From a virus: a stretch of DNA of 56,131 bases. Positions 1 through 56,131 of this stretch are shown one piece after another. Both the position numbers and the translations under genes were made by a program. A model generated the notes under the pieces. That model was not told the DNA's origin, searched no databases, and saw nothing but the letters and a program-made list of their open reading frames with translations. Position 1 is the stretch's first letter; each line of letters starts with the position of its first letter. Location: the IMG/VR virus record IMGVR_UViG_3300002143_000137, one strand, 5' to 3'.

Positions 1-166
1 ACCGCTAGGTACATAAGCATCATCGACGGCTCGGTCGAGAGCCCGGTGAGCCCTAACCAGATCAAGCGGCATAAAGAGCGGATCATATAGGTCAGCCAAC
101 GTCGATTCATGGTGGACTGATCTAGTGTCGATGACTGCTTGAGCCGCTTTTTCAATTGCAGCTCTA
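1..166. repeat. Terminal overlap copy 1 (identical to 55966-56131)
   Basis: Base-for-base identity read directly. It lies inside a coding frame. Confidence 0.95.
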
Positions 167-2649
167 TGCTGGTCGGTGGCATCAATAGGCCAGGGATAGT
201 TGTTGTAAACAATTCCTGTGGAATATCGGTACCTACTCTCCAGTCTCCCGCCAACAATTCGCACCCAAGCCATATGCATCGTGCTCGTTAGCACACCGAA
301 GTCGAATGAAGTTGCGTTCGGCACGATATAAGCTTGATTTGATGCAATTACATCTGGTGGTAGATAAGCCATCGGAATGAAGTTGCGGCGCTCTGATGAT
401 GCAGTGGGGATCGCAACGTACTGGGTTGTTGGTTGCCGTATCTCAGCAAAAAGAGCCGGCGTGACGGCTAGTTTCTTTGTAGCGGCGCGATTACTCGACT
501 CTCTCCATAGCCGGACCGCCTCAACTCGTCTCTTGATTGCAGGTAGTTTGTTGATTTTTTGGGGGGGAACGCCAGAAAGCCAGAGGCAATATCGATTGAT
601 TGAATAGAGCAGCTCATTTCCTCCCACGAACGGCTTCAGAAATTCCTGTGCCTCAGGGCACTCGGCAAGAATCTCAGTACGAGTGCCCTCGTCTATAGTG
701 TAATTTCCATCGTCGAGTGCAAAACTTCCGTAATTCATAGCTGCGGCAGATGGCGATAACGGCTTTGTTCGTTTAGGAATGACGATGTTAGGTCCGTCAA
801 TTAGATACGGATTAATAGACTTAGCGGAAACTCGATGCGGTTCTCCTGCTACGTCATCATAATCAAAGATCACTGGCGCAGATGATGGAAACCGCGCGAA
901 TCCAATAATTATGCAATGGACTGCGGCGACACCTTTAGCCTCGTTACGCCACCTAAAGGTGCGGTGCGCAAAATGGATTTTTACGCCTTCTCCGATCATC
1001 CAGCCCCAAAGGGGAGCTACTTGCTCGCCTTGGCATATAGAGTTTGTGGAAACGAAAGCACAGCGAGTATGTTGCGTAGAGTATCTCACTGCCTTGATAT
1101 ACCACGCAGCCACGAAATCTAATACGGGTGCTCCTATAACCCCTTGTGTGGCTTCAAAGAAGGATGCTTTCTGCTCAGGCTTCTGCTCTTTTTTTCCAAG
1201 AAACGGTGGATTCCCAAACACGTAGGTGAGCTTCTCGGCCGGCACGACAGATCCCCAGTCCAATCTTAAAGCATCGCCATGCACAACATTAGCTGACTTT
1301 ACTAAGGGAATTCGGACGAGCGCCTGACCAAAAGCCTTACCTACCAGCAGATTCATTTGGTGATCAATCAACCACATAGCGACGCGAGTGATCTGGGCTG
1401 GCCACTCTTCGATTTCAATACCGTGAAACTGATCCACATCGACTTTTACATACTGGTCAACAGCATCCATTGAGAGCTGTTGCTGCCCCTTGCTGTAGAG
1501 GCGTTTAATCACTTCTAGCTCTAGTAAGCGTATCTCTCGGTAGCTGATAACGAGAAAGTTTCCGCAGCCGCAAGCAGGGTCAAAGAAGTTTAGCGACCCT
1601 AATTTTTGATGGAACTCCTGCAGCTTCTTCGGCTGCGTCTTAACTTTTTCAAATTCGTCACGCAGCTCATCCATGAATAATGGGCCAATGACTTTTAAGA
1701 TGTTTTTCTCACTGGTGTAATGCGCCCCAAGATTACGGCGCGCCTTTTCGTCCATAATGCCCTGGAAAAGCGAGCCAAAAATAGCTGGGCTAATCGCACC
1801 CCAGTCGAGTTCGCAACAATCTAGTAGTGTTTCGCGCATTGCGCGGTCAAAACTGGCCTGTGGCAAAAACTCTTCAAATAGCTTGCCGTTTACATATGGG
1901 AATGCGGCAATCTGCTCATCAAGGTTTTTAAGACGCTTTTCGGGTGCCGTGTTGAGTGTTTGAAAAATCTGATTGAGACGTGGAGCAAGATCTGAGCCAT
2001 CTTCGGCTGTACGAACCCGAATAAAGTCTTCAAAGGCGCTACGAGGCATAAAAATGCCGGTATCATCAGCAAACATACAAAATAAAATGCGGACAAGATA
2101 GACCTCAAGCTCATGCCCTTCATAGCCTATATCCTTAAGTGCATCGTGAAGCTGCGCCAATTTCTCTGCAGCCTTTGTATTTACCGGGTCTTGCTCCTTG
2201 TATTGCCGAGTTTCATAACCGGCAATAAAGCTAAAATGGGATAGCCTTTGGGGTAACTCACTCAATGGGAATTCGTAATTTTCGTCAGTATCAAGGTTGC
2301 GAATTCTGAATCGAGCAAAATCTGAAACTATGATGTATCGAGGTAGCTCTTTATCACTCAAGCCTGGGAAGTAGTCCGTCGCTTGGTCGTAGGCCGAGTC
2401 CAAATTCTTTCCTCTGGACTTGTGCTCAGCCAGCAACATTCCCGGCCAAAAAAGGTCGATAAAACCATCTTTACCGTTAGCTTTTTTAATGTGCTTTTCA
2501 AATGCAGCGAGTCGACGCCTACTTACTCCAAAAACATTAAAAAACTCATCCCAGAAAGTTTTGGCTTCTGCGTGCTCGGAGGATTCATTTTCCCACTCGC
2601 GCACAAAGGCAACAGAGCGATCTCTGATTTCATTCCATGAAAGTGGCAT
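1..2649 (-). CDS. MmeI-family Type IIL restriction-modification enzyme, codons 1-883 (ORF leaves the left edge and is completed by 55846-55965)
   Basis: My own reverse translation from the ATG at 2649 stays open to base 1: MPLSWNEIRDRSVAFVREWENE... Motifs: D-x9-ExK nuclease (GFIDLFWPGMLLAEHKSRG), SAM motif I (FFDPACGCGNFL), motif IV (FGNPPFLG). Absent from the ORF track because it has no in-window stop. Confidence 0.85.
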   Translation of the reverse strand, partial: MPLSWNEIRDRSVAFVREWENESSEHAEAKTFWDEFFNVFGVSRRRLAAFEKHIKKANGKDGFIDLFWPGMLLAEHKSRGKNLDSAYDQATDYFPGLSDKELPRYIIVSDFARFRIRNLDTDENYEFPLSELPQRLSHFSFIAGYETRQYKEQDPVNTKAAEKLAQLHDALKDIGYEGHELEVYLVRILFCMFADDTGIFMPRSAFEDFIRVRTAEDGSDLAPRLNQIFQTLNTAPEKRLKNLDEQIAAFPYVNGKLFEEFLPQASFDRAMRETLLDCCELDWGAISPAIFGSLFQGIMDEKARRNLGAHYTSEKNILKVIGPLFMDELRDEFEKVKTQPKKLQEFHQKLGSLNFFDPACGCGNFLVISYREIRLLELEVIKRLYSKGQQQLSMDAVDQYVKVDVDQFHGIEIEEWPAQITRVAMWLIDHQMNLLVGKAFGQALVRIPLVKSANVVHGDALRLDWGSVVPAEKLTYVFGNPPFLGKKEQKPEQKASFFEATQGVIGAPVLDFVAAWYIKAVRYSTQHTRCAFVSTNSICQGEQVAPLWGWMIGEGVKIHFAHRTFRWRNEAKGVAAVHCIIIGFARFPSSAPVIFDYDDVAGEPHRVSAKSINPYLIDGPNIVIPKRTKPLSPSAAAMNYGSFALDDGNYTIDEGTRTEILAECPEAQEFLKPFVGGNELLYSINRYCLWLSGVPPQKINKLPAIKRRVEAVRLWRESSNRAATKKLAVTPALFAEIRQPTTQYVAIPTASSERRNFIPMAYLPPDVIASNQAYIVPNATSFDFGVLTSTMHMAWVRIVGGRLESRYRYSTGIVYNNYPWPIDATDQHRAAIEKAAQAVIDTRSVHHESTLADLYDPLFMPLDLVRAHRALDRAVDDAYVPSG

Positions 2650-3234: not shown

Positions 3235-3450
3235 ATGAGCTTACTGCTTGTAATCTTGGCTACTATCGCATCCATCGCCGCCCTCGGTGTCCATGGCCTT
3301 TGGGTCTTTTTAATTGGCTTAGGCTTATTGTCAGCCATAGAAAAAAAACACCCAGGGACGAACTTTGTCGAGGGTGCCGTTTCGATCATTGGCATTTTGA
3401 TTGTCGTAATGATGGCGGCGGAGATCCTTCTCCGCACCCTTCAAGGTTAA
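3235..3450 (+). CDS. Small hydrophobic membrane protein (71 aa, 2-3 predicted TM segments)
   Basis: MSLLLVILATIASIAALGVHGLWVFLIGLGLLSAIEKK...IIGILIVVMMAAEILL. No competing gene on the other strand. Stop overlaps the stop of the giant gene (TTAA). A hairpin at 3180-3212 lies upstream. Confidence 0.5.
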   Translation: MSLLLVILATIASIAALGVHGLWVFLIGLGLLSAIEKKHPGTNFVEGAVSIIGILIVVMMAAEILLRTLQG

Positions 3451-9400: not shown

Positions 9401-12400
9401 CGGCCTCCATATCCTCGGCAGTCCTAATGACCTCAATCTTTTCCATGGCGCCAAGGATGGCTTTATAGGCCGCAACAATCTCTGGCCTGGCGTTGCTGCC
9501 CTTTAAGAGCCAATCCCTGTCTGCATGCTCACTAAGGAATGGCCCCTCCTGCCGAGCTAGGCCCGCAATTACACCGAAATGATGATCGACCGCATGGCCA
9601 AACTCATGGGCCAAGCTTCCTGCGCCCGCCGTTTTTGTAATATTGATTTCATTTAAACCGGGGACAAAGTGCGCCGCCGCGTGGCTGCCATGACCTTGAG
9701 CGCCAAAGGCAACGCCGAGCATTCCACCAAGCGACATTGACTCCGGTGGTACGCCCATCACCTCCGCCAAATCCAGGAAGGCATCATAAGCGGCGTTAGT
9801 GTGCTGCTGCCGGTCTGCTGCATTCATCCAGTTGCCAAAATTCACCCCCCGGAAACCAAACGTAGTCCGAAGCTGGTCGGCCGTTACATCGCTTTCTCTT
9901 CGCGCCTCACCAATTCGCTCGACGTGATCCATTGAAACGCTTGGCTCCTTGAAAGATGCCTCTCGTTCAACCTTCGCCAAGTCTCTCGCCGCCTGAATCG
10001 CCGCCTCCTGCGTGTCGTGCTCGCTTAATACGCTACGGAAGCGCTTTTTACTCACCCCCCATTTATCACCCTTTTGGGTGACCGTATATTGTTTCTCCCA
10101 CGCTTCACGCTTAGCGGGCCATCCCTCGGATATTTCCTTAACCGCTTTACGCAAATCAGCAGAGCCAATATCGGCGCGCTTTATAAACCTGTTGCCGCCA
10201 ATGGCGAGGATATTGCGATTACCCTCCGGGTTTTTCTTACCCCAGCGAGCGCCGTTATCGTTTTCAGGAAAGGCCGCCTCGTATATTTTGTGAGTTATCG
10301 CTTTTAATGAGTCTGCTACCGACTTGCTGGCTCGCTGCTGTGCCAGATAGTCAGACCCGGCAGACTGTATTACTTGCAAAGACTCGAGAATTTTTTGCGC
10401 ATATTCCCGCGACCCAGCGTAATCCATGACCACGTCGCGCACTTTGCTGGTTGTTTCAACGAATGCCCGGACACCCTCCTCGCTTTTGCTGTCGGGCTTC
10501 ACTGCCATAGAGTCATAAATGTGCTTCAAGGTGTACGCGGCCAGTGGGTTCATGCCATCATTAATCAGCGCCTCATAATCCGGCTTTGGCCAAATTTTCG
10601 CCTTTACGGCCATCTTCACTTGTTCGGCGTCATTCATTCCCTCGAAGTCACGCATTGTTAGGCCGGTTGATCTGCGACGATTAGCTCCCAGCTCCTCGCC
10701 ACTATCGGCTAATTTCTTTTGAGGCTCAGTCTTGGTTTCTTGATTGCCGGCGCTGGATTTTTCAGTTGATCGACTGGAGCCCTTGCTGCTCTTGGCTTTC
10801 AGCTCTTGATCGGCTTTTGATCCTTTCGCGCCCCGGTCAACATCAGCGCTCGGAAACTCCTTAACCTGCTCCAGCAGCTCAGTGATGGGCGCATCTAAAC
10901 GAATTACCCGCACTTCCTCGTTGTTGTCGCGCTTGGCCATCCATTGGTGGTGACCATCAAGCACATGGCCGTCGCCGGAAACGAGGATAGCGCGGTCGCC
11001 GCCAGTGAAGTCCTTGGCTTTGGCCACCTTAGCTTCGGAAAACTCTTTTTGTGTTGGCTTGAGCGAGCTGGCTGCCACCGTCTCTTCGGTACCGGCAATG
11101 CCGCGCGCCTTGAGGAAGTTTGCCAGGGCGCCGCGGTGCTCAGCCTTAACTTGCGGCATCTCGTCGCGAGGAATATTCAGGGTACCGGAGTCGGTAGAGA
11201 ATGCCGTCCACTCCTTGTCGATCTTGGCGCCGCGAATGTCTCGACCGCGCGCCAACTTCTGTATGTTGCGCAAGGCAACAATATTTGAGTTGTGATCGCC
11301 TCGGTACTGCTTGGCTAGCGCATTATATTCGTCGATTTCATCGGCGGATCGTATAAGCGCGTTCTCAAGCGCTTTTTTGGCGGAAAGCGGCTTAAATGTG
11401 TCGCTCGTTAAGCTTTTTGCCGCAGGCCCGTCAAACAAAGAGTTTTGGCCCCGAGAGTTGGCAATATCAGCCGGCGCGCTGGAGCCAGACAAAGTGAAGT
11501 CGTTAAGCTCTTTGTCGGCGTCGAGTTTTGCGGATATTGCGGCTTCTGCGGATTTTGCGGAGGCTTCGGCGTCAGCTTTCGCTTTCGCCTGGTCGACTAG
11601 CTCTTGCTCGGTGTACTGGTTGAGGCTGAAGTTGTCTTGGTTCCCAGTTTGCCCAAGGCCTTCAGCGCTCCCTTCGCCTCGGTTGGCAGGCTCTCCGTTG
11701 GCGTTCCGTTCATTAGCTCCGTCATTAGCGACTGCCCCGCCTTTGTTCCCAGCACCTTGCGCGTTAAATTGCTGCTCATTGTTAAATGCCTCTTCAGTTA
11801 AGGTAGCGGGCGATCTTTTTTCAACCGCGCCAAACATATCTTCTGCTGGTTTTACGGACTCATTGTATAGCGCGTCAGCTAGTGCTGTCAGCTTGTCGCC
11901 AATCGCTTTCGCTGACCGAATATTTTCAGAGAACATTTGCAGTATAGGCCATGTTTCCGGGGCCACTGTCATATCGGATTGCTGAATAAATTCTTGAAGG
12001 CTTCGGCCTTGCCGGCGCGCATTCACCGCTATGGCTGCCGCCTCAGACACAATCGCCCTTACGTCATAGTTACCCTGGCCCTTGAGGCGAGAAAGCGGCC
12101 CCGCTGCTGCCAATAAGCCAGACATAACCGTGCGCGCTTCGGGGTCGGTTGCTTGTGCCTGCAATCGAATCAGCTCGTCGTTATCAAAAGACGCAGCAAA
12201 TATTGCGTTTTCCATGCGCTCATAGGCGCGCTTGGACGGCAATTTTCCGTCACGCAGGCCGCCTCGCTCCGACTCCGGCATAGCGTTTATAAACTGTTCT
12301 GCCGCTTCTTGCGTTAGCTGCCCATCAGGGCCAATGATCGCGGTACCGGCCACATTGATCCGCCGCGCATCGTTACGCGCCTGCTCTACAGGGGATAGTT

Positions 12401-14927
12401 CAGAGACGCCGCTAATGTTTGACTCGTCACCAATATCATTCGTAATTTCAGAGCTGGGCATTACCCGCACCAGCACCGGGTTTTTCATGCGACGGATTAC
12501 ACCCGGGTCGATTCCGTGCGTATTGTCCCCGGCCATCTCTTGCTTGTATTGGCCGCCTTGGCCACTGCTGTGTGCGTGCTGCAGCCCGGTTACTCGGCCA
12601 TTACCAGCAATCGCGCGAGACTTGCCTTCCATGCCGGCATCGTAGCCTTTAACCGGCGAGCCGTTTATGTCATTGCTCGACAACAACTGGTCGGCCTCAA
12701 CAACGGCATATTGAACTGGTATTTTTCTGCCGCTACTGGAAGTGGCCACGTCTTTACGGCCTAAATTTTGGCGAGGAATATCCGCGCCCGCCTCAACCAC
12801 TGGCGCGCCGGCCGATAAGTCACGCGAAAAACTCAATCGAGAATAATCTGGATTACTCGCGATACTGCGCATTTGCGCGATACTTTCCGGCGTGGAGCGG
12901 TCGCGGTTTTGTAGTACCGGCTTGTCGGCTTGCGCGCTTACCTGGCTAGCTTCGCTATTGGTGGTTGCGCTCAAGTCGATTGATTCTGGCGCGGTCGGCA
13001 CTCTCTCGGTCCGAGTGCGGCCGCGTCCTGGCACGCCAGAATTTTGCGCGCCAATCTGCCCTTCATAAGCAGCAGTATTTTCGCGCTGCTTGCGCGCCCT
13101 TTCCTGCTCGGCGTCGTAGGTTTCCTGGGCATCGCCGCGCATATCATCATACCGGCGTTGGCGCACATCGTCGGGCTCGGTACCGAAAACGTCGCTCGTC
13201 TTGCCTAGCTTTAGTGTGCCGTCAAGATCCTGGCTAATGCCTGGCTGTTTGCCGGGCTTTGGCTCTGCCGGAATGTGCTCGCCATCCAGGATGTGTTGGC
13301 CGATTTGCAAAGGATCTTTAATGGCTTGACCATCATAAGTCTCACCTTGCGCGCTCGGGCTCCCGGCGACGGGCATCGTCGCACCGGGGATAAACTCGCC
13401 TTTCGTGGCGCTGACGGCTGGCAGGCCGCCATTACCGCCACCGTCATTACTGCCAGTGTTGTCATAGAAGCGAGCCAGAATGTCGTCGGCGTTTTGATAA
13501 AGCCGGCTTGCCATGCCCTCCTTACCTTCAGCCTGGAGTTTTTGCGCGCGGCGATAGAGGTTTCGTGCACCAGTTAAGACGGTTGCGCCTTCTGTGTCGC
13601 CAGCGCGCTCAAGAATAAGGATGTCGCCATCGAGGCCGGATAATCGGCTTTTACGGCTGTTGTTTGATTCCTTAACCGTTGCGCCTGGTGTCATTCCAGC
13701 CGTGCGCTGGTCGCTGCTCGCGGGCTTGCCGGAAAAGGCGCGCTCCACTTCGGCGGCATTCAGCCCGTCAAGCTCGGCTTGGCGCTGTCGCAGCATCTCC
13801 ATTTCTGCCGGGTCGGTAAAAATACGCGACCGGCGATTCTGCATGTCTACTGCTGCGGCGTCCGATCCCGCCAGCTCTTGCTCAAGCGCATCGCCACCGG
13901 CATCCGCTGCTTTTTTCCGGGCCTCGTCGACGCGACCGATAGCGCCCAATGGAGCGCCCACGCCAAAGCCGACTACAGCGCCGGTTAGCGCTTGCGGCAG
14001 TACGTTATCGTTGGTAATTGTCGGGTCAATATTGCGCGCGGCATTGTTAACAGAAAGTGCTGCCGAGCCTTCTTCGACAAACTCCTGAGCCATCTCCGTT
14101 GAGCCGACTAGCGCAGCGTTACCCAGGCGGGACTTGCCAAGAGTCCCTTTCAATAAGCCGTCAAATACCTTGCCCATTACGGCGTTCGATAAGAAATTGA
14201 CTGCGGCCAGTTCAGGATCGCGCATAACTTCGGACGCGGCAGTGTCAGCTAAATGCTTGCGAGCATTGGTGGCGTTTGTAATTTCGTCCTGGCTCTCGTC
14301 GTAAAAATCCGAGTTCCACAGATCCAGGAAAGCCTTGCTTTGATACAGGGTTTCGTCGGGGATATTCATCACGGTAGAGCGCGCATCTTCGCCCGCCATA
14401 CCTTGCGCCATGCCGCCACCGACAGCGCCAGATCCCATTGCTCCGGCTGCAGAAGCTAAGCCTCGCCCGGCGCCAAGCATTTTGGCACCCACGCCGACTG
14501 CACCACCACCAATAAGCGTTGGGATCGTGGTGCCCAAGCCCTGCGCGGTCATCATGGCTAAAGTTCTGGCATTCGCGCCTTCGCCAAGCTCCAGTCCGTT
14601 TTCGCCGTTTCGGAAAACTTCTTTCGTTAGCGCTTCCCGGCCTTCTGGGCTAATGGTTTCACGCTGGTCATCAGCCCAATTATTAAAGACCTCTGCGACG
14701 CCCTGGCCGTAGCCGGTAAATTCCTGAGCTAGCGAAAACAGGCCGCCGACACCCTGAAGCGCGCCGCGCTGAGTCATATCCACTAAATCGCCGGTAATGC
14801 CCTGACGGTCTTTGCTCAATGCTTCGGGAGATACTGCGCTGGACTGCGCAATATGCGTGTTCAGAAAATTGATTTTTTCTTCGTCGGAAAGGTCGTCAAA
14901 GCCGGGGATAAACGGATTATTGCTCAT
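3447..14927 (-). CDS. Giant multidomain polyvalent virion protein (3,826 aa)
   Basis: One uninterrupted ORF, the last gene of the late operon. Multiple enzyme motifs are listed as sub-features below. Confidence 0.95.
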   Translation of the reverse strand: MSNNPFIPGFDDLSDEEKINFLNTHIAQSSAVSPEALSKDRQGITGDLVDMTQRGALQGVGGLFSLAQEFTGYGQGVAEVFNNWADDQRETISPEGREALTKEVFRNGENGLELGEGANARTLAMMTAQGLGTTIPTLIGGGAVGVGAKMLGAGRGLASAAGAMGSGAVGGGMAQGMAGEDARSTVMNIPDETLYQSKAFLDLWNSDFYDESQDEITNATNARKHLADTAASEVMRDPELAAVNFLSNAVMGKVFDGLLKGTLGKSRLGNAALVGSTEMAQEFVEEGSAALSVNNAARNIDPTITNDNVLPQALTGAVVGFGVGAPLGAIGRVDEARKKAADAGGDALEQELAGSDAAAVDMQNRRSRIFTDPAEMEMLRQRQAELDGLNAAEVERAFSGKPASSDQRTAGMTPGATVKESNNSRKSRLSGLDGDILILERAGDTEGATVLTGARNLYRRAQKLQAEGKEGMASRLYQNADDILARFYDNTGSNDGGGNGGLPAVSATKGEFIPGATMPVAGSPSAQGETYDGQAIKDPLQIGQHILDGEHIPAEPKPGKQPGISQDLDGTLKLGKTSDVFGTEPDDVRQRRYDDMRGDAQETYDAEQERARKQRENTAAYEGQIGAQNSGVPGRGRTRTERVPTAPESIDLSATTNSEASQVSAQADKPVLQNRDRSTPESIAQMRSIASNPDYSRLSFSRDLSAGAPVVEAGADIPRQNLGRKDVATSSSGRKIPVQYAVVEADQLLSSNDINGSPVKGYDAGMEGKSRAIAGNGRVTGLQHAHSSGQGGQYKQEMAGDNTHGIDPGVIRRMKNPVLVRVMPSSEITNDIGDESNISGVSELSPVEQARNDARRINVAGTAIIGPDGQLTQEAAEQFINAMPESERGGLRDGKLPSKRAYERMENAIFAASFDNDELIRLQAQATDPEARTVMSGLLAAAGPLSRLKGQGNYDVRAIVSEAAAIAVNARRQGRSLQEFIQQSDMTVAPETWPILQMFSENIRSAKAIGDKLTALADALYNESVKPAEDMFGAVEKRSPATLTEEAFNNEQQFNAQGAGNKGGAVANDGANERNANGEPANRGEGSAEGLGQTGNQDNFSLNQYTEQELVDQAKAKADAEASAKSAEAAISAKLDADKELNDFTLSGSSAPADIANSRGQNSLFDGPAAKSLTSDTFKPLSAKKALENALIRSADEIDEYNALAKQYRGDHNSNIVALRNIQKLARGRDIRGAKIDKEWTAFSTDSGTLNIPRDEMPQVKAEHRGALANFLKARGIAGTEETVAASSLKPTQKEFSEAKVAKAKDFTGGDRAILVSGDGHVLDGHHQWMAKRDNNEEVRVIRLDAPITELLEQVKEFPSADVDRGAKGSKADQELKAKSSKGSSRSTEKSSAGNQETKTEPQKKLADSGEELGANRRRSTGLTMRDFEGMNDAEQVKMAVKAKIWPKPDYEALINDGMNPLAAYTLKHIYDSMAVKPDSKSEEGVRAFVETTSKVRDVVMDYAGSREYAQKILESLQVIQSAGSDYLAQQRASKSVADSLKAITHKIYEAAFPENDNGARWGKKNPEGNRNILAIGGNRFIKRADIGSADLRKAVKEISEGWPAKREAWEKQYTVTQKGDKWGVSKKRFRSVLSEHDTQEAAIQAARDLAKVEREASFKEPSVSMDHVERIGEARRESDVTADQLRTTFGFRGVNFGNWMNAADRQQHTNAAYDAFLDLAEVMGVPPESMSLGGMLGVAFGAQGHGSHAAAHFVPGLNEINITKTAGAGSLAHEFGHAVDHHFGVIAGLARQEGPFLSEHADRDWLLKGSNARPEIVAAYKAILGAMEKIEVIRTAEDMEAARLSSLASSRESLDRIVASWQRWMTNATEAQQNKLNAIVDKLRAGDRGDYVALGKTKQLVGKNINAAREIASEVYGRAIAADQFTHADTAAGMIEYAVDAEKFAETHKPQQSGMTEYRRNARDMDGKKKDPYWSTRLEMFARAFETYVLDKLRLDEKRNDYLTAAWKNLGAEDGIYGEAATKWFPQGDERAAINKAFDGLIDTIEVNDEGIISENTGSALYSSNERETQDIRRGQRGANRITEPAADQQPAQGDLFNQLAKKSVAATEFYSKAALREVDTVKTGVEFVKSPQDAAHVLSSFRKNAQENMLVLVLDKDDRPLSVIRHTKGAMDSASVNPEELAGAVAATPGAAKIYLGHNHPSGMTKPSDADRMITDKIVGTLEPSGIDTMGHVILGEGAGAYFFDDLTTGNPIKVKPLLRKRTVPVTESKILARSKQTSITSADTARVAVKDLPSGVLFLNTQNAPAAFVPMTTEELSDLRGDGYRRLLETLNNASAKTAILNIDADEVDAAINASRALNNIGMRVLDVFIGGKSNAAVGGSLNKEEGIFYSRTSELKRAATPKGVGLGAAKIAINKFLKQYKGANDVTVKVFRTHEEAHGTPAPFRTKGGYDPKTDTLFVYTEALDSLADLEETLQHEVLVHKGIGFIDPVHAAEFLTSLRNAAKDSPELASVLDEVERVESGRSDQLKAEEILARIAQEKLTFTDKVWNRIVLALQRLLKRAGFNVDVSAHRQGKDLVYRIGDAFAEGQRARRRVDLDDAVFNREAASEADKVMAQWSKKLSLMRNADKQDFVLSVKAPLILRELKVISKIEITKRRIMAIQNKHSDLPYSVLEDLPLLLADPQAVYTRGAGKGEGEVNVVIEVRTAEGEPILVGINEGEIKTITPKHHGENSSGVERLWGDISRGGLLYVRNEEALIEIRASKAAPGREQSPKRRQDLPKNILTKDDIVNKYNRDRGEQHLFSRELGQDNGKGSLAWDAANAKGLDMSKDARMRRAKAMGFDTDTVLYHGTRPGVDIKEFSRQHSPDGIYLTPDPTYAEGFTNELFGDSGAAGAIYPVFAKLENSYTVTASYGSPEWESFVNRGLDMLEIEAQGYDSAVLVDEETGDVDQVIVINPANIRSVNAAFDSAEDGSSNILYSRIAEPVSDREAIMAAKLGMAQDNRSPIARAKDSMKDWWREVMDGFIPSVADKFYDLKKINAEAYMRARMSTNTGAALAAALGHATPEWHEDGILKAKRGSKGLLDVLKPIEGDVNGWVSWMVAKRAEGLMASDRENLLTEQEIATLLDVSPETAALYQSVADEWKAYNGAMLDLMAGGNLITQASADHFKQDAYYIPFYREVTDETGEVDVVASFTKRGLSHQKDGIEKLKGGTSNLQDPLKNMLMNVTRAIDASVKNNALLRIVNEVDTGSENSVLSVAHEGNRSGNNVIRVRRDGQNEYYRVHDIGVLGALTAMNDMQSTAITRLLGIPKQLLTAGVTATPTFMLRNAIRDITASWMQSEDVKWQASKALGQFRDALKIDDDTIDMMMAGSAFMGGYRYSNDATSNAQALREQLRKKGMSTESVDGYMSSLFDGSKQSWEWYREKGERFENMARQKMFRDALDSGHSYFDAAYRAKDLMDFSLHGRAGIMHFLIQTVPFMNARIQGLYKLGRVVGNQKNMAELTQMVAFKGALVAAATLALYAINEDDEDYQALRDWDKDANWHIFLDGEHLRIPKPFELGLMFSTIPERAARLANGDDDARVFFKSVGSNMLETLSMNPMPQAVMPITEAAFNYDFFRGRSIDNQSDLGNLPGSRKSLYTSALATGMGAMLEDLGVTGDMASPKRIDHIIKGYTGSMGISLLSATDAVVHMLSGNTTPAMNRRDYPVIGWFARGDDPVGTKYSDDFYRLVSRANQAYSTIRDPNTDAERRAEIIEDYGTELKARKMLVGANMRLSMLRKQQDAVYRDSQLTSEQKRERLNKIQQIMNEIQKRAVDRVSA
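6020..6400 (-). other. ADP-ribosyltransferase-like module of the giant protein (about aa 2845-2970)
   Basis: VLYHGTRPGVDIKEF...DGIYLTPDPTYAEGF...VLVDEETGDVDQVIVINPANI. This is the H-Y-E type ART pattern seen in polyvalent proteins. Confidence 0.55.
7300..7640 (-). other. Second HExxH module of the giant protein (about aa 2430-2540)
   Basis: LEETLQHEVLVHKGIGF at nt 7471-7491. Confidence 0.35.
8190..8600 (-). other. RadC-like JAB/MPN module of the giant protein (about aa 2110-2245)
   Basis: KIYLGHNHPSGMTKPSDADRMITDKI. The HNHPSG motif is at nt 8313-8335. Confidence 0.75.
8940..9880 (-). other. Zincin-like metallopeptidase module (LPD1-type) of the giant protein (about aa 1685-1995)
   Basis: FGFRGVNFGNWMN...GAGSLAHEFGHAVDHH...EMFARAFETYV. 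Confidence 0.6.
10865..11180 (-). other. ParB/sulfiredoxin-like nuclease module of the giant protein (about aa 1250-1355)
   Basis: LKPTQKEF...AILVSGDGHVLDGHHQWMAK. Confidence 0.7.
12400..12910 (-). other. Possible additional ParB-superfamily module of the giant protein (about aa 675-840)
   Basis: IPVQYAVVEADQLLSSND...GKSRAIAGNGRVTGLQHA...NPVLVRVM. Confidence 0.4.
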
Positions 14928-51473: not shown

Positions 51474-51674
51474 ATGTTTCTCTCGCCAGAAGAAATACAC
51501 CAACTTACCGGATACGAACCAAATCAACGTGTGCGAATCGCTCGATGGCTAACAGTAAACGGCTATCCCTATACTACTAATCGCCTTGGCGACCCAGTAG
51601 TAAGGCGCTCTGACGTTGAAAGCAGCATTATTCCATCAACAGAACCCAATTTAGAATGGCTTAAATCAGCATGA
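51474..51674 (+). CDS. DUF4224-type excisionase-like protein (66 aa)
   Basis: TAGGAGG SD. MFLSPEEIHQLTGYEPNQRVRIARWLTVNGYPY. Overlaps the int start. Confidence 0.65.
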   Translation: MFLSPEEIHQLTGYEPNQRVRIARWLTVNGYPYTTNRLGDPVVRRSDVESSIIPSTEPNLEWLKSA

Positions 51675-52654
51675 GTCCTAAGCGATCAAGAACAAATAAA
51701 GGCCCAGAGCGCACCACCTTTAAAAACGGAGCCTGGTATTACCTTAAGCCGATTATAAAAGCGGGTAAAAACACCACCCAATGGATCCGGCTTGGCAAAA
51801 CCGAAAAGGAGATGTACCAACAACTTGCTGAACTGAAGTCAGAAGGTGCTGGCTTAATGGCCGCTATTATTGAGCGATACCGCAAGGAAATCATCGTTAA
51901 GAAAGCAGTCAACACCCAGAACGCACAGGGCAAGCAGCTAGACCGTCTTAAGAGAGCCTTTGGCCATATGCGCCCTAGCGACTTAAGACCTTCTCACATC
52001 GCAAAATATCACGATTTAGTGGGCGATAAAGCTCCATTCCAAGCGAACCGCGAATTGGCTCTGATGACGCACGTCTGCAAATACGCGGTCCGCTGGGGCC
52101 ATATCGACGACAACCCATGCCGCGAAGTTCAACGGTTCCCCGAGCAAGCCCGAGAACGCTACATAAGCGATGCCGAATACACCGCCGCCCGTGATATTGC
52201 GCCACTGTGGGTACAAATCATCATGGACCTAGCATACGTGACCGGCCAACGTAGAATCGACCTACTAAGCCTCACACGCAACCAAATCACCGACCAAGGC
52301 ATACTCATAAAACAGAGCAAGACCGGCGCCAACCTACTCATAGAATGGACGCCAGACCTTGAAAGCATCATCACCAGGGCACAAACCGAACTATTACCGG
52401 CCGGTACGGCATCTATCTACATTATCTGCGACAGTAGCGGTCAAAAAAGAAGAGACGCCGCATTCACAACCGCATGGACACGCTTAATGAACAAAGCCAT
52501 CAAGGCCGACGTAATTACGGAAAAATTCCAATTCAGGGATATTCGAGCCAAGGCAGGATCAGACAGTAGCGGTGAACAGCTGGGGCATAAATCAGCGACA
52601 ATACTCAATAAGCACTATAAGCGCCTACCAAAAAGAGTTAAGCCGACTCAATAA
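51671..52654 (+). CDS. int: Tyrosine integrase
   Basis: GQRRIDLLSL (Arg box) and LGHKSATILNKHYKR (H-x-x-R...Y region). Confidence 0.9.
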   Translation: MSPKRSRTNKGPERTTFKNGAWYYLKPIIKAGKNTTQWIRLGKTEKEMYQQLAELKSEGAGLMAAIIERYRKEIIVKKAVNTQNAQGKQLDRLKRAFGHMRPSDLRPSHIAKYHDLVGDKAPFQANRELALMTHVCKYAVRWGHIDDNPCREVQRFPEQARERYISDAEYTAARDIAPLWVQIIMDLAYVTGQRRIDLLSLTRNQITDQGILIKQSKTGANLLIEWTPDLESIITRAQTELLPAGTASIYIICDSSGQKRRDAAFTTAWTRLMNKAIKADVITEKFQFRDIRAKAGSDSSGEQLGHKSATILNKHYKRLPKRVKPTQ

Positions 52655-52911: not shown

Positions 52912-53016
52912 ATTAAAAAGGCTGCAACTCGTGGGGAGTGGCAGCCTTCGTTAGAACCCAGCTATTAAGCCTTTTTCATTGTTAATAAGGCACTGGCATC
53001 GTTTTTGGTAAGCGAA

Positions 53017-53595
53017 ATGATAGAGAAACATATTGAATTAGTCAAGAATCAGATCAGTTTTCACGAATATCGTGCAGGCTCCTCCAAAAGCGAGCATGCG
53101 CGCAAGAAGCAAGAAACACTCGTAGCTGGATTCACCGACCTCTTAAAAGACCTCGTTGAACTAAACGGTCATCCGGTCGCAAACGGGTGCAGCAGCATAC
53201 CCGACTTTCTCAAAGCAGTATTAACCGCAGCAGACCCACGCAAACCAACTTCTGACCCAGTACAACTATTAGGCGACCTCTCGCCTAACGATTTAGAGGG
53301 CCTCCCAGACGACGTCCTCGCCAAACTAGGCCTACGCCCCTCAGACAAGCAAGATTTCCTTATTGTCGACATCATCAAAGAGCTTGGTGGCGCGGCTATC
53401 ATTACTAAAATCCTCATTAGAATATATCAGCGCACTGGTGAAGCACCAGAGCGAAATACGCTCGGCGCTAAGCTATACCGAATGACTGCCAAAGGCCTAA
53501 TCAAAAGCTCAAATTTAGGAAAAGGTTGGTACTGCCTGCCTGAGCACGAAAGCGCCAGCGACAAAAATGATGATGAGGACTCAAGCGAGGACTAA
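53017..53595 (+). CDS. SOS-box-controlled protein with a C-terminal wHTH-like domain (192 aa; antirepressor candidate)
   Basis: First ORF downstream of the LexA box. DFLIVDIIKELGGAAIITKILIRIYQRTGEAPERNTLGAKLYRMTAKGLI. Acidic tail. Confidence 0.6.
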   Translation: MIEKHIELVKNQISFHEYRAGSSKSEHARKKQETLVAGFTDLLKDLVELNGHPVANGCSSIPDFLKAVLTAADPRKPTSDPVQLLGDLSPNDLEGLPDDVLAKLGLRPSDKQDFLIVDIIKELGGAAIITKILIRIYQRTGEAPERNTLGAKLYRMTAKGLIKSSNLGKGWYCLPEHESASDKNDDEDSSED

Positions 53596-54073: not shown

Positions 54074-54118
54074 CTGTTAATCATTGGGTCGCTGGTTCGA
54101 GCCCAGCAGGCGGAGCCA
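54074..54118 (+). other. attP core: 3' half of a tRNA-Asn(GTT), from the anticodon loop to CCA; not a complete tRNA
   Basis: CTGTTAA loop, TCATT, GGGTC variable loop, GCTGG-TTCGAGC-CCAGC T-arm, AGGCGGA acceptor strand, G, CCA. There is no matching 5' acceptor, D-arm or anticodon stem upstream. Confidence 0.75.
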
Positions 54119-54127
54119 AACAAATCA

Positions 54128-54160
54128 AAGGGTTGCATCGAAAGATGTAACCCTTTTTTA
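54128..54160 (+). terminator. Hairpin terminator directly after the tRNA fragment
   Basis: AAGGGTTGCATC-GAAA-GATGTAACCCTT followed by TTTT. Confidence 0.75.
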
Positions 54161-54202
54161 TTGGTTGTCTAATAGGTGTCTAATAAAAAATGTAGGCATA
54201 AC

Positions 54203-55018
54203 TCAATCGTTGCTCGCTGATCGCTCCTCTATCTTCGCAATTGCAGCATCAAAGGCTTCCGTTGCGACACTAGGCCTATTCCAGAAATATGTGCGCCGCT
54301 TAAGAATTGAAAGCAGTTCAGAATCGGCCACCGGATCAAATACCAATGGCTCATTTTCTCGGGCATAAGGATATAGCCGCTCACATTTTGCGTGGACCAT
54401 CGCTACATTAAGTATTTCGGAGACAACATCACTCCTCCCATAGCCGGCACTTCGCTCATTAAGCCCGCCAACCCTAGAGTGGATAATTTGCAACTTTGAA
54501 AGTATTGACGCCATAAACTCCGCAACATTCGGCGGAGCATGGACAATGCAGTCGCGAAATACAGCTTGATAAGATGCCGGAAGTTTAGGCAATTCAAGTA
54601 CAAGCGTATCCGGGTCGTTCTCATCAAAATAGCCCTCCCTTGGCAAAGACTGATAAAGGCCCGAAAAAATGACATTCACATCATCAAAGTAGCCATGCAA
54701 CTCTGACAAAGACGCGGTTAAAAAAACCTTAGCAGCTACAAACTCTCTGCGACGCTGCTCCTCGACGAGTTCCTTTTGCTGAGCGACTTGCCTTCGAGCC
54801 GCCCACAAGGCTATAAAACTTGCTCCGAGGGCAATCATCGCAGCATTGAATGTCTGCCAGCGCCCCCAAACTTCTTGAACATAGCCCCAATCCCATCCGC
54901 TAATAGCAAACGGCCAAACAACCATCGCGATGAAGTACAAGGCAAACGGCAGAATCACAAAAAAAAGGAATATCCAAGCAGCTGGCTTCTTTAAGATCCC
55001 GTTCAATTCCTGCACCAC
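54203..55018 (-). CDS. Membrane protein: 2 N-terminal TM segments plus about 190 aa of helical cytoplasmic domain, no recognisable family
   Basis: AAWIFLFFVILPFALYFIAMVVWPFAI and FNAAMIALGASFIALWAA. The start overlaps the nuclease gene by 16 nt. Confidence 0.7.
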   Translation of the reverse strand: MVQELNGILKKPAAWIFLFFVILPFALYFIAMVVWPFAISGWDWGYVQEVWGRWQTFNAAMIALGASFIALWAARRQVAQQKELVEEQRRREFVAAKVFLTASLSELHGYFDDVNVIFSGLYQSLPREGYFDENDPDTLVLELPKLPASYQAVFRDCIVHAPPNVAEFMASILSKLQIIHSRVGGLNERSAGYGRSDVVSEILNVAMVHAKCERLYPYARENEPLVFDPVADSELLSILKRRTYFWNRPSVATEAFDAAIAKIEERSASND

Positions 55019-55452
55019 GCTGGTTTTTTCCCTCCATCATACGGAACTGCATGTCCAGACCTGATCAGGCTTTCACCCAAACTAACGCCATCTATCCAGA
55101 CCTCGGCCAACAACCTGAAATATTTGTCTCGTTCCAATGCCCGCAACTCAACCGATTTCCCAGCCCGGAGCATAGACACGGCATATTGTTTCGCCGCCCT
55201 GGCCGCGTACTTTTCTGCGTGGCATTTACCTCGTAGCTCTGGGGTATCAACCCCTTTAACGCGAACAGAAATACTCTCCCCCACTATTGCAGGCCAATTA
55301 TTAATATCGACTTTGAACGAATCCCCGTCGTAAATAGTGCGGATCGCCGAGACAGTGACAGCGCCGTATCCTTCTGCATATACTAATTGAGGCGCTAACA
55401 ACGTCAAATATAGGGAAAGCCATCGAGCGATAACATTACGACGCCGACTCAC
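55003..55452 (-). CDS. Secreted staphylococcal-nuclease (thermonuclease) homologue
   Basis: Signal peptide MSRRRNVIARWLSLYLTLLAPQLVYA. Catalytic pattern DGDSF...VRVKGVDTPE...DKYFRLLAEV. GTGA overlap with the upstream stop. Confidence 0.8.
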   Translation of the reverse strand: MSRRRNVIARWLSLYLTLLAPQLVYAEGYGAVTVSAIRTIYDGDSFKVDINNWPAIVGESISVRVKGVDTPELRGKCHAEKYAARAAKQYAVSMLRAGKSVELRALERDKYFRLLAEVWIDGVSLGESLIRSGHAVPYDGGKKPAWCRN

Positions 55453-55691
55453 TTAATGACGCTCATGCATCGCACTTGAACCGACGGGCTTTGGCTCGGC
55501 AAGTTCGGTTTGATGCCCTGACTCTGCCTTGCGTCCCCCACCATATCAATCAAAGTTCCCGCCGCGGTCACTGCTGCACTATCACAGGCCTGCTTAGTCG
55601 AGAAACCGTCAATCATACTTAAAGAAGGATCTCTTATTGTCCCTTGTTCAGAAGAAATCGTAAGCACTACAACCAGTACCCATTCAACCAT
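55449..55691 (-). CDS. Small exported or membrane-anchored protein (80 aa from the ATG at 55691)
   Basis: GAGGGAG SD. MVEWVLVVVLTISS hydrophobic N-terminus. Confidence 0.55.
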   Translation of the reverse strand: MVEWVLVVVLTISSEQGTIRDPSLSMIDGFSTKQACDSAAVTAAGTLIDMVGDARQSQGIKPNLPSQSPSVQVRCMSVIK

Positions 55692-55845
55692 TTGGAGCTC
55701 CCTCTCATAAAAAATGATAAATTGATTATCTCTGGAATTGAGCCTACCACTGAGCCCGCTTCCACAGATCACTCTACAATTTCAAAGACTGCAGTCACAC
55801 CCCCAATGAATTCCTAAAAAGCCAGTCGCAAAGCATCTATGCCGC

Positions 55846-56131
55846 TCACACCGGCTTTTTCCGTTTAGCTTTGGGCCTATCTACAGGAAGCAATGATGTG
55901 ACCTTCTCGTAAAGCTCGAAAAGGAACGCCACCCTCTCTGCCTCGGTGGCCCAGCTTTTCTTGCCACCGCTAGGTACATAAGCATCATCGACGGCTCGGT
56001 CGAGAGCCCGGTGAGCCCTAACCAGATCAAGCGGCATAAAGAGCGGATCATATAGGTCAGCCAACGTCGATTCATGGTGGACTGATCTAGTGTCGATGAC
56101 TGCTTGAGCCGCTTTTTCAATTGCAGCTCTA
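55846..56131 (-). CDS. C-terminal end of the MmeI-family enzyme (55966-56131 duplicates 1-166)
   Basis: The frame continues ...DDAYVPSG then GKKSWATEAERVAFLFELYEKVTSLLPVDRPKAKRKKPV, with the stop at 55846-55848. Confidence 0.85.
   Translation of the reverse strand, partial: RAAIEKAAQAVIDTRSVHHESTLADLYDPLFMPLDLVRAHRALDRAVDDAYVPSGGKKSWATEAERVAFLFELYEKVTSLLPVDRPKAKRKKPV
55966..56131. repeat. Terminal overlap copy 2 (identical to 1-166)
   Basis: Read directly. Confidence 0.95.

What the first reader, a model, noticed from the sequence alone, without database searches (positions are those of the whole stretch)
54203..55691. Translationally coupled trio next to attP: exported small protein, secreted SNase-like nuclease and an orphan 2-TM protein
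Three minus-strand genes overlap end to start (a GTGA overlap and a 16-nt overlap). They lie 73 bp downstream of the MmeI-like gene, on the phage side that ends up adjacent to the tRNA after integration, which is classic lysogenic-conversion cargo.

The middle protein has an RRR-containing signal peptide (cleavage-like VYA/EG) and intact staphylococcal-nuclease catalytic residues (DGD, RVKGVDTPE, DKYFRLLA).

The 80-aa upstream protein also has a hydrophobic N-terminus. It could be an inhibitor or partner of the nuclease.

The 271-aa downstream protein has two TM helices and a helical cytoplasmic domain with no family I recognise.

An envelope-located nuclease coupled to membrane partners and co-oriented with an RM enzyme looks like a candidate superinfection-exclusion or defence module. 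I cannot match it to any named system.
Basis: inference. Interest (0 to 1): 0.75.

Follow-up and report, generated by a model that had tools for sequence, protein, structure and literature searches.

The report
Prophage cargo: exported nuclease, membrane protein
Three real, overlapping genes sit beside the integration site of a temperate phage, but they are loosely joined cargo (an orphan small protein, an ordinary exported DNA-cutting enzyme and a member of a large unnamed membrane-protein family of mobile elements), not a recurring three-part defence system.

Summary
Three minus-strand genes (80, 149 and 271 aa) overlap by 4 and 16 nt. All three are under purifying selection. They lie between an MmeI-family restriction gene and the attP core, a 3' fragment of tRNA-Asn.

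- The small protein is probably soluble, not exported.
- The RRR in the nuclease signal peptide is not conserved, so export is Sec-type, not Tat.
- The 73-bp gap refers to a non-coding ORF extension; the real gap is 154 nt.
- The 271-aa protein is not an orphan. It belongs to a family of at least 1,577 sequence clusters with no Pfam, NCBIfam, PHROG or PADLOC model and no fold match in PDB or BFVD.

The trio recurs only in one sister phage. None of 53 other viral SNase loci carries the membrane gene.

The membrane family occurs in phages, plasmids, integron-like arrays and defence islands. It is often alone. Elsewhere it abuts changing upstream genes: GIY-YIG-like, M78 peptidase, RelA/SpoT and a coiled-coil membrane protein. 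These partners differ even among near-identical copies.

Best reading: packed lysogenic-conversion cargo. The nuclease is a standard exported thermonuclease. The membrane protein is an uncharacterised candidate exclusion or abortive-infection factor. A fixed three-gene module is not supported. A constant membrane module with swappable effectors remains possible.

The parts
55449..55691 (-). Small ORFan gene, 80 aa. Starts at ATG 55691 with RBS GAGAGGGAG about 8 nt upstream. Its stop TGA overlaps the GTG of the next gene.
   Evidence: ORF and sequence. Only one homologue among 5.8 billion proteins, the L001 copy at 98% identity. 18 synonymous against 2 non-synonymous codon changes, dN/dS 0.025. 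No Pfam, PADLOC or NCBIfam hit. AF2 single-sequence pLDDT 74, beta-beta-alpha-beta fold. No fold match.
55003..55452 (-). Exported SNase/thermonuclease-family nuclease, 149 aa. Residues 1-26 form a signal-peptide-like leader (VYA/EG). The SNase core spans about residues 30-140.
   Evidence: Pfam SNase 8.3e-10, 39.5 bits. phrog_452 endonuclease 1.7e-17. PDB staphylococcal nuclease alignment with catalytic residues. Hydropathy and two conserved Cys. dN/dS 0.145. Nearest annotated phage relative is the Sulfurimonas phage SNW-1 thermonuclease at 47%, which also has a leader.
54203..55018 (-). 271-aa inner-membrane protein of a large unannotated family. Layout: N-in, TM1 about 14-38, Trp-rich outer turn 39-56, TM2 about 57-74, then a cytoplasmic all-alpha domain of about 190 aa. 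The GTG start overlaps the nuclease gene by 16 nt.
   Evidence: 1,577 cluster representatives. Conserved columns. AF2 pLDDT 92.3, pTM 0.81, all helices. Hydropathy and charge distribution. No Pfam, PADLOC, PHROG, NCBIfam or PDB-sequence hit. No fold hit in PDB or BFVD.
55692..55751 (-). Conserved leader upstream of the small gene. It includes the inverted repeat GATAATCAATTTATC (55716-55730) and the RBS. It may be a regulatory site.
   Evidence: Window/L001 alignment: this block is nearly invariant, whereas the sequence further upstream diverges and carries indels. No consensus sigma-70 promoter was found here.
54127..54156 (.). Terminator-like hairpin of 13 pairs, 47 nt after the stop of the 271-aa gene. 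It closes the operon before attP.
   Evidence: The hairpin is kept in L001. A sub-threshold Rfam BjrC68 hit coincides with it.
54074..54118 (+). tRNA-Asn (anticodon GTT, read by eye) 3' fragment, taken as the attP core.
   Evidence: Exact match located. 48 bp are identical to the end of Phage CBW1004C-Prop1. No whole tRNA is present in the window. L001 ends inside this fragment.
55846..56131 (-). 3' end of the MmeI-family type IIL restriction-modification gene. The gene continues at window 1-2649, and 55966-56131 duplicates 1-166.
   Evidence: 166-bp terminal repeat. (an independent contig runs through the junction). Precomputed Pfam domains MmeI_N, MmeI_hel, MmeI_Mtase, MmeI_TRD and MmeI_C on the identical 922-aa product.
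1..2649 (-). 5' part of the same MmeI-family gene (922 aa in all).
51671..52654 (+). Tyrosine integrase, on the other side of attP.
   Evidence: Pfam Phage_integrase 1.2e-6, 28.9 bits against cut-off 27.1.

Best explanation
The region is a compact accessory ('moron') operon at the attP-proximal end of a complete, circular temperate phage genome of about 55,965 bp. It lies downstream of an MmeI-family RM gene. The three genes are joined by compaction or translational coupling, but they are separable units, not a named or recurrent three-component system.

Gene 2 is a standard Ca2+-dependent SNase-family nuclease made with a Sec-type leader. In a lysogen it would act outside the cytoplasm, in the periplasm or medium, on DNA there: transforming or other incoming DNA, or extracellular DNA. 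This step is inferred.

Gene 3 is one member of a large family of inner-membrane proteins that has no model in the four libraries searched. Each has an N-in 2-TM hairpin with a highly conserved Trp-rich outer turn and a helical cytoplasmic domain. Phages, plasmids, integron-like arrays and defence islands carry it as a self-contained gene. Its most likely role is an autonomous membrane-level exclusion or abortive-infection factor. This is inferred from context only.

Gene 1 is a lineage-specific, strongly constrained and probably soluble small protein. Its tight coupling to the nuclease gene makes a nuclease-directed role possible, for example an intracellular inhibitor or chaperone before export. 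That is speculative.
For: - Real genes with conserved overlaps.
- Circular phage with integrase and attP.
- SNase membership and intact active site.
- The leader is kept in hydrophobicity and V-x-A site in both copies, with two conserved Cys.
- Small SNase genes annotated 'thermonuclease family protein' are common MGE cargo: 209 plasmid records (108 predicted conjugative) and 29 phage records, several alignments reaching back to query residues 8-15. 10 of 51 viral relatives have a hydrophobic N-terminus.
- The trio is restricted to two sister phages. 0 of 53 viral SNase loci carry the 2-TM gene.
- The 2-TM family is large and unannotated.
- Stand-alone or unrelated contexts: an integron-like array; a lone opposite-strand gene among phage tail genes; next to the integrase of P2-like Vibrio phage ValB1MD-2; relaxase plasmids; Vibrio plasmids.
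- Proteins 88-93% identical have different upstream genes, and L010 keeps an intact 2-TM gene beside a truncated RelA/SpoT remnant.
- Defence genes in the neighbourhood.
- One family member is fused to a putAbiC module.
- The MmeI gene has dS 1.8 against 0.2-0.5 for the trio, so the blocks have separate histories.
- Precedent for MGE-encoded periplasmic DNases that destroy incoming DNA: IdeA, SxnA and Dns (PMC12378983).
Against: - No experiment and no expression data are available.
- Export of the nuclease rests on manual criteria only; no signal-peptide predictor was available.
- Five separate lineages of the 2-TM family abut an upstream gene closely: four overlap it by 4-22 nt and one (RelA/SpoT) leaves an 18-nt gap. 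Four of those partners are effector-like enzymes: SNase, GIY-YIG-like, M78 peptidase and RelA/SpoT. That pattern could mean functional pairing rather than packing.
- The 16-nt and 4-nt overlaps in the window are conserved.
- The defence context is qualitative, not a statistical enrichment.
Confidence: 0.6

Rival explanations
1. Constant membrane module plus swappable effector. The 2-TM protein is a membrane sensor or regulator, for example of phage DNA entry or envelope stress. It licenses whichever effector is encoded just upstream: SNase here, and elsewhere a GIY-YIG-like nuclease, an M78 peptidase, a RelA/SpoT-type enzyme or a membrane protein.
For: Close abutment (overlaps of 4-22 nt, or an 18-nt gap) to a different upstream gene in five lineages; four of those genes have domains typical of defence effectors and the fifth is an unclassified coiled-coil membrane protein. 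Partners are swapped among 88-93% identical 2-TM proteins. The outer turn is highly conserved, as expected for a sensing surface. Defence-island settings.
Against: Many lineages have no abutting partner. L010 keeps the 2-TM gene with only a remnant of the partner. bSEFIR and GIY-YIG proteins of the PD-T4-3 type are listed in PADLOC under single-protein model names. The SNase would be periplasmic while the other partners are cytoplasmic, so there is no common compartment. The GIY-YIG assignment is weak (Pfam E=0.064; PADLOC PD-T4-3 E=0.007).
Confidence: 0.17
2. Integrated envelope nuclease module. The small protein, the periplasmic nuclease and the 2-TM protein form one complex that cuts incoming DNA at the envelope. 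It would be a split, periplasmic counterpart of a membrane-bound nuclease such as SNIPE.
For: The overlaps are conserved in two phages. The trio is more conserved than the adjacent MmeI gene. SNIPE shows that a membrane-anchored nuclease can cut phage DNA during injection (PMC13190303).
Against: The triplet recurs only in one sister phage. 0 of 53 viral SNase loci carry the 2-TM gene. The small protein is probably cytoplasmic. The 2-TM protein exposes only about 18 residues outside. There is no DUF4041 or SNIPE-like architecture.
Confidence: 0.1
3. Toxin-immunity or addiction pairs. The 2-TM protein, or the small protein, neutralises the adjacent enzyme. The 2-TM protein would be a promiscuous immunity partner of diverse toxic enzymes.
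For: The partner enzymes are potentially toxic (nucleases, a RelA/SpoT-type enzyme, a peptidase) and closely abutting. TA genes lie nearby in some loci. The small protein is under extreme constraint, as expected of a tight binder.
Against: 2-TM genes stand alone in many elements. An exported, Ca2+-dependent SNase should need no membrane antitoxin (established knowledge of the family). There is no similarity to any antitoxin family in Pfam or NCBIfam.
Confidence: 0.07
4. Lytic-cycle functions. The nuclease degrades host DNA for nucleotide supply and the 2-TM protein is a holin-like lysis protein.
For: Most viral SNase relatives lack a leader and occur in lytic phages. There is a weak Phage_holin_3_6 hit (E=0.1, 13.1 bits).
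Against: The leader implies export. The holin hit is far below its cut-off of 28.4 bits. At 271 aa with a large cytoplasmic domain, the protein is unlike a holin. The family also occurs on plasmids and in integron-like arrays. The att-proximal position next to an RM gene is typical of lysogeny-expressed cargo (inference).
Confidence: 0.04

Closest known systems
Staphylococcal nuclease / thermonuclease family (Pfam PF00565); the small 'thermonuclease family protein' genes of plasmids and phages, e.g. Sulfurimonas phage SNW-1 WAK43917.1
   Same: Same fold family, with the Ca2+-binding and catalytic residues intact, about 140-150 aa, an N-terminal leader, and carriage on a mobile element.
   Different: At most 47% identity to any annotated phage or plasmid copy. 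Here it is translationally coupled on both sides to genes not found next to other SNase genes.
MGE-encoded periplasmic or secreted DNases that destroy incoming DNA: IdeA (ICE VchInd5), SxnA (SXT), Dns (C. jejuni prophage CJIE1)
   Same: A nuclease carried by an integrative element and acting outside the cytoplasm, whose shown effect is to block DNA uptake (PMC12378983). This is the likeliest way gene 2 works.
   Different: No sequence comparison was made here. Dns is described there as carrying an endonuclease domain typical of secreted or periplasmic endonucleases, not an SNase domain. No phenotype is known for the window gene.
SNIPE, a membrane-bound GIY-YIG nuclease that cuts phage DNA during injection (PMC13190303)
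   Same: It shares the idea of a nuclease positioned at the inner membrane. Some 2-TM family members are coupled to a GIY-YIG-like gene.
   Different: SNIPE is one polypeptide (TM + DUF4041 + GIY-YIG) with a cytoplasmic nuclease. Here there is no DUF4041, the genes are separate, and the SNase is predicted to be exported.
Membrane abortive-infection or superinfection-exclusion proteins of phages and plasmids (e.g. AbiC-like, Pfam putAbiC PF16872)
   Same: An MGE-borne gene, frequently stand-alone, for an N-terminal 2-TM protein with a helical cytoplasmic part, set among defence genes. One family member is fused to a putAbiC module.
   Different: No detectable homology (hhalign probability 0.2). 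No function has been tested. There is no Pfam, PADLOC or PHROG model for this family.

Membership tests
SNase / thermonuclease (PF00565) | Profile match above the curated cut-off | tested here: met
   39.5 bits against cut-off 21, E 8.3e-10. 157 PDB SNase sequences at E<=1e-3.
SNase / thermonuclease (PF00565) | Ca2+-binding and catalytic residues (SNase D21, R35, D40, T41, E43, R87) | tested here: met
   The alignment covers R-x4-D-T-P-E and DKY-x-R. DGDS was read directly in the sequence. All are kept in L001.
SNase / thermonuclease (PF00565) | Ca2+-dependent nuclease activity | not testable with these tools
   Needs an enzyme assay.
Sec-exported protein | n-h-c leader with small residues at -3/-1, kept in relatives | tested here: inconclusive
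   Manual reading only: hydrophobic core at 11-24, with VYA/EG in the window and VNA/AV in L001. The nearest phage relative also has a leader. No signal-peptide predictor was available.
Tat-exported protein | Conserved twin-arginine motif | tested here: not met
   RRR in the window is SGCRN in the 85%-identical L001 copy.
Any named anti-phage system in PADLOC-DB 2.0 | Profile hits to the system's component proteins | tested here: not met
   Small protein and 2-TM protein: no hit at E<=1. SNase: only a domain-level hit to the candidate model C3a212 'SNc+LTD'. 88 family members: no consistent hit.
   Only the window phage (also L101) and sister contig L001 carry it. 0 of 53 viral SNase loci have the 2-TM gene. 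About 18 lineages of the 2-TM gene have other neighbours.
DUF4760 (the UniRef label on the Crenobacter homologue) | Pfam DUF4760 profile match | tested here: not met
   No DUF4760 hit for P0159 at E<=5, nor for 88 members at E<=0.01.
Holin (Phage_holin_3_6, PF07332) | Profile match above the cut-off | tested here: not met
   13.1 bits against cut-off 28.4, E 0.1.
SNIPE | A single protein with TM + DUF4041 + GIY-YIG | tested here: not met
   No DUF4041 or GIY-YIG in any trio protein. Architecture taken from PMC13190303.
putAbiC (PF16872) | Homology of the 2-TM family to the AbiC-like module | tested here: not met
   hhalign probability 0.2, E 0.32. There is only a fusion or adjacency in P0147.
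MmeI family (neighbouring gene) | The five MmeI domains in order | tested here: met
   Precomputed Pfam hits MmeI_N, MmeI_hel, MmeI_Mtase, MmeI_TRD and MmeI_C on the 922-aa product.

The most novel reading that the evidence does not exclude
The 271-aa protein represents a new, widespread family of inner-membrane immune modules carried by mobile elements. It either blocks phage or plasmid DNA entry on its own, or senses envelope events through its conserved Trp-rich outer turn and controls a swappable effector encoded just upstream (SNase, GIY-YIG-like, M78 peptidase, RelA/SpoT). That would be a modular 'constant membrane sensor + variable effector' defence architecture not represented in Pfam, NCBIfam, PHROGs or PADLOC-DB.
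Probability: 0.2. Interest if true: 0.8.

Novelty: new variant of a known kind. Interest (0 to 1): 0.45.

Why it matters
The nuclease itself is ordinary. The value lies in the third gene.

It gives an entry point to a large protein family: at least 1,577 clusters at 50% identity, 209 of them at E<=1e-30. The family has a confident predicted structure but no fold neighbour in PDB or BFVD and no annotation in the four libraries searched. It sits in the cargo and defence hotspots of phages, plasmids and genomic islands.

If the family excludes phages or plasmids, or gates adjacent effectors, it would add a new membrane-level immune component. It would also help to annotate many 'hypothetical' genes in defence islands.

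The exported nuclease next to attP is a testable case of a prophage limiting DNA uptake by its host.

Tried and rejected
- Pfam, PADLOC, PHROGs and NCBIfam gave nothing for the small and 2-TM proteins. The same held for 88 family members in Pfam and PADLOC and 8 members in PHROGs.
- A profile search of PDB sequences found nothing.
- Foldseek of the pLDDT-92 model against PDB and BFVD gave no hit at E<=0.001. The small-protein model against PDB also gave none.
- The DUF4760 label from UniRef could not be reproduced.
- The weak holin hit was rejected as far below its cut-off.
- Homology to putAbiC was rejected by hhalign.
- The Tat signal was rejected because the RR is not conserved.
- The longer 107-aa reading of the small ORF was rejected because of frame-breaking indels relative to L001.
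- Relatives of the small protein in viral contigs: none.
- No related phage was found by DNA search: megablast of 24 kb found no match, and blastn of the region matched only the 48-bp tRNA fragment.
- An apparent loss of the M78 partner in L085 came from my own crude ORF picking. blastn shows the gene region is present.
- The first genome scan, with the 88-sequence alignment, failed for lack of a conserved word.
- The literature search found no paper on family members.
Full report
**What is in the sequence**

The window is a complete, circularly permuted phage genome. Its first and last 166 bases are identical. An independent metagenomic contig, L101, reads straight through the junction.

On the minus strand there are three ORFs:
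- 55449-55691, 80 aa, starting at ATG;
- 55003-55452, 149 aa, starting at GTG;
- 54203-55018, 271 aa, starting at GTG.

The first stop (TGA) overlaps the second start (GTG). The second and third genes overlap by 16 nt.

Upstream lies a 922-aa MmeI-family RM gene that wraps round the window ends (55846-56131 plus 1-2649). Downstream are a 13-pair terminator-like hairpin (54127-54156) and a 45-nt 3' fragment of a tRNA on the + strand (54074-54118). I read the anticodon as GTT, i.e. Asn. No whole tRNA is present. A tyrosine integrase sits on the other side (51671-52654).

Because the fragment is tRNA-sense on the + strand, integration would rebuild the tRNA next to the trio. This is inferred from orientation.

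**Are the genes real?**

A sister contig, L001, carries the same order: giant ORF, MmeI gene, 80-aa, 149-aa and 271-aa genes, hairpin and tRNA fragment. It has the same two overlaps. Nei-Gojobori estimates between the two copies are:

| Gene | dN/dS | dS |
|---|---|---|
| Small protein | 0.025 | 0.43 |
| Nuclease | 0.145 | 0.53 |
| 2-TM protein | 0.33 | 0.23 |
| MmeI gene | 0.175 | 1.82 |

All three genes are under purifying selection. The MmeI gene is far more diverged, so the trio and the RM gene have different histories.

The stretch between the GTG at 55772 and the ATG at 55691 carries 4-, 2- and 3-nt indels relative to L001. By contrast, the last ~60 nt before the ATG are almost invariant and contain the inverted repeat GATAATCAATTTATC. 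The ATG is therefore the true start, and the gap to the MmeI stop is 154 nt, not 73.

**The nuclease**

It passes the Pfam SNase cut-off (39.5 against 21 bits) and matches phrog_452 'endonuclease'. It aligns to staphylococcal nuclease across R35, D40, T41, E43 and R87. The DGD motif is visible upstream.

Residues 1-26 form a leader with a hydrophobic core and V-x-A before the predicted cut. Both features are kept in L001, but RRR is replaced there by SGCRN. The leader is therefore Sec-type and not Tat. This rests on manual criteria only. Two Cys are conserved in the mature part.

Such genes are common cargo:
- 209 plasmid records match, 108 of them predicted conjugative, mostly annotated 'thermonuclease family protein'.
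- 29 phage records match. The best is Sulfurimonas phage SNW-1 at 47%, which has a classic leader.
- Among 51 viral relatives only 10 have a hydrophobic N-terminus. The window gene therefore belongs to the exported minority.

Periplasmic DNases encoded by integrative elements (IdeA, SxnA, Dns) are known to destroy incoming transforming DNA (PMC12378983). That is the most likely mode of action here. It is inferred, not shown.

**The small protein**

It has one homologue in 5.8 billion proteins, the L001 copy. There is none in viral contigs and no family hit.

Its hydrophobic start (VEWVLVVVLTISS) lacks a charged n-region and a cleavage motif. A single-sequence AF2 model (pLDDT 74) makes it the first strand of a beta-beta-alpha-beta fold. 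That model has no fold neighbour. 'Exported' is therefore not supported.

Its extreme constraint and its GTGA coupling to the nuclease gene make a nuclease-directed role conceivable, for example an intracellular inhibitor before export. Nothing tests this.

**The 271-aa protein**

It is not an orphan. Word-indexed search found only five relatives. A full HMMER profile search found 1,577 cluster representatives at E<=1e-3, 632 at E<=1e-10 and 209 at E<=1e-30, mostly 240-270 aa.

The family has no Pfam, NCBIfam, PHROG or PADLOC model and no relative in PDB by sequence. The AF2 model is confident (pLDDT 92.3, pTM 0.81) and all-helical. It has no fold neighbour in PDB or BFVD.

Hydropathy and charge give this layout:
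- N-in;
- TM1 at about 14-38;
- an 18-residue outer turn;
- TM2 at about 57-74;
- a basic stretch;
- a ~190-aa cytoplasmic helical domain.

The outer turn and the start of TM2 (W-x-Y-V-Q-x-V-W-x-x-W-Q-x-x-N) are the most conserved part of the family. A UniRef label 'DUF4760' on one homologue could not be reproduced.

**Where the family lives**

Stand-alone, or without an abutting partner:
- an integron-like array of small same-strand genes beside an integrase (L014-17);
- a lone opposite-strand gene among phage tail genes (L076);
- the gene next to the integrase of P2-like Vibrio phage ValB1MD-2 (L078);
- relaxase plasmids (L072, L073);
- Vibrio plasmids, one near a DUF4238 gene (L079, L080);
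- several metagenomic lineages (L090-96, L098).

Abutting a different upstream gene, by overlap or a short gap:

| Upstream gene | Loci | Junction | Support |
|---|---|---|---|
| SNase | window, L001 | 16-nt overlap | Pfam above cut-off |
| GIY-YIG-like, 317-327 aa | L002-8, L086 | 4-nt overlap | motif by eye; weak HMM support |
| Peptidase_M78 | L018, L081-88 | 4- or 22-nt overlap | E 2e-19 |
| RelA_SpoT | L087 | 18-nt gap | E 4e-16 |
| 418-aa coiled-coil membrane protein | L089 | 4-nt overlap | no family |

Crucially, 2-TM proteins that are 88-93% identical (L002, L010, L086, L087, L089) have three different upstream genes. L010 keeps an intact 2-TM gene beside only the last ~135 nt of the RelA/SpoT gene.

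Neighbours include Septu (PtuAB), bSEFIR, PDC-S37/Hhe helicases, HEPN_AbiV and TA genes. One family member is fused to a putAbiC module, without homology between the two halves.

From the nuclease side, none of 53 viral SNase loci contains a family member.

**Interpretation**

The trio is real and tightly packed, but it is not a recurrent three-part system. The triplet exists in one phage lineage only, and each part has its own distribution.

The best-supported reading (confidence about 0.6) is att-proximal cargo made of separable units:
- an RM gene;
- an ORFan;
- an ordinary exported thermonuclease;
- a member of an uncharacterised membrane-protein family of mobile elements, whose setting points to exclusion or abortive infection.

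The main rival (about 0.17) is that the 2-TM protein is a constant membrane module that works with whichever effector lies upstream. Repeated close abutment to effector-like enzymes, and partner swapping within one lineage, fit this. The many partner-less copies and the different compartments of the partners count against it.

It shares none of SNIPE's defining architecture, and it would require the small protein to be exported, which the model does not support. Toxin-immunity and lytic-cycle readings are less likely.

**Novelty and score**

The nuclease is a new member of a well-known kind. The operon as a whole is a variant of known prophage cargo. The membrane family is unannotated in every library searched and has no fold neighbour in PDB or BFVD, but its function is unknown, so I do not call it categorically new.

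Interest is 0.45. The proposed module is not upheld, yet the finding exposes a large, well-defined candidate family that is cheap to test.

Noticed in passing
window 1-166 and 55966-56131: Exact 166-bp terminal repeat. An independent contig (L101) runs through the junction, so the window is a complete circular temperate phage genome of about 55,965 bp.
   Followed up: yes
window 3447-14927 (-): A 3,826-aa ORF whose only PDB-sequence match is a RadC-like stretch at residues 2145-2243 (E 9e-7). It may be a giant polyvalent or injected protein. L001 has the same gene upstream of its MmeI gene.
   Followed up: partly
window 53005-53595 (+): A 196-aa ORF between the integrase and attP with no significant family. 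Only sub-threshold hits appeared, to PaaX and to a retron St85 effector model.
   Followed up: partly
window 55692-55751, repeat at 55716-55730: The leader upstream of the small gene is almost invariant between the two phages and holds the inverted repeat GATAATCAATTTATC. The rest of the intergenic region has diverged. No consensus sigma-70 promoter is present. It may be an operator.
   Followed up: partly
window 55846-56131 + 1-2649 vs L001:6396-9164: The MmeI-family gene is much more diverged between the two phages (dS 1.82, dN 0.32) than the adjacent trio (dS 0.23-0.53). This suggests allele replacement or fast diversification of the RM gene.
   Followed up: partly
window 54074-54121: 48 bp of the tRNA fragment are identical to the end of Phage CBW1004C-Prop1 (MZ188970), an otherwise unrelated record. 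The two share an integration target.
   Followed up: partly
window 54116-54163: A sub-threshold Rfam hit to sRNA BjrC68 (25.4 bits against gathering score 39) coincides with the terminator hairpin. It is probably structural chance.
   Followed up: no
L002:8338-10780, L005:1046-3563, L086, L087, L089, L010: In one lineage of the 2-TM family (88-93% identical proteins) the upstream gene is swapped: GIY-YIG-like (itself preceded by an HNH protein or by bSEFIR), RelA_SpoT, or a 418-aa membrane protein. L010 keeps only a remnant of the RelA_SpoT gene and has gained a DUF559-like gene downstream.
   Followed up: partly
protein P0147 (627 aa): A 2-TM family domain (residues 38-266) is fused to a second membrane module with a putAbiC domain (494-590, E 3.8e-12). 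The two halves show no homology.
   Followed up: partly
L078 (Vibrio phage ValB1MD-2, NC_055862.1: 33732-34520): A cultured P2-like phage carries a family member (gp43, hypothetical) as a lone gene beside its integrase. This offers a ready experimental system.
   Followed up: no
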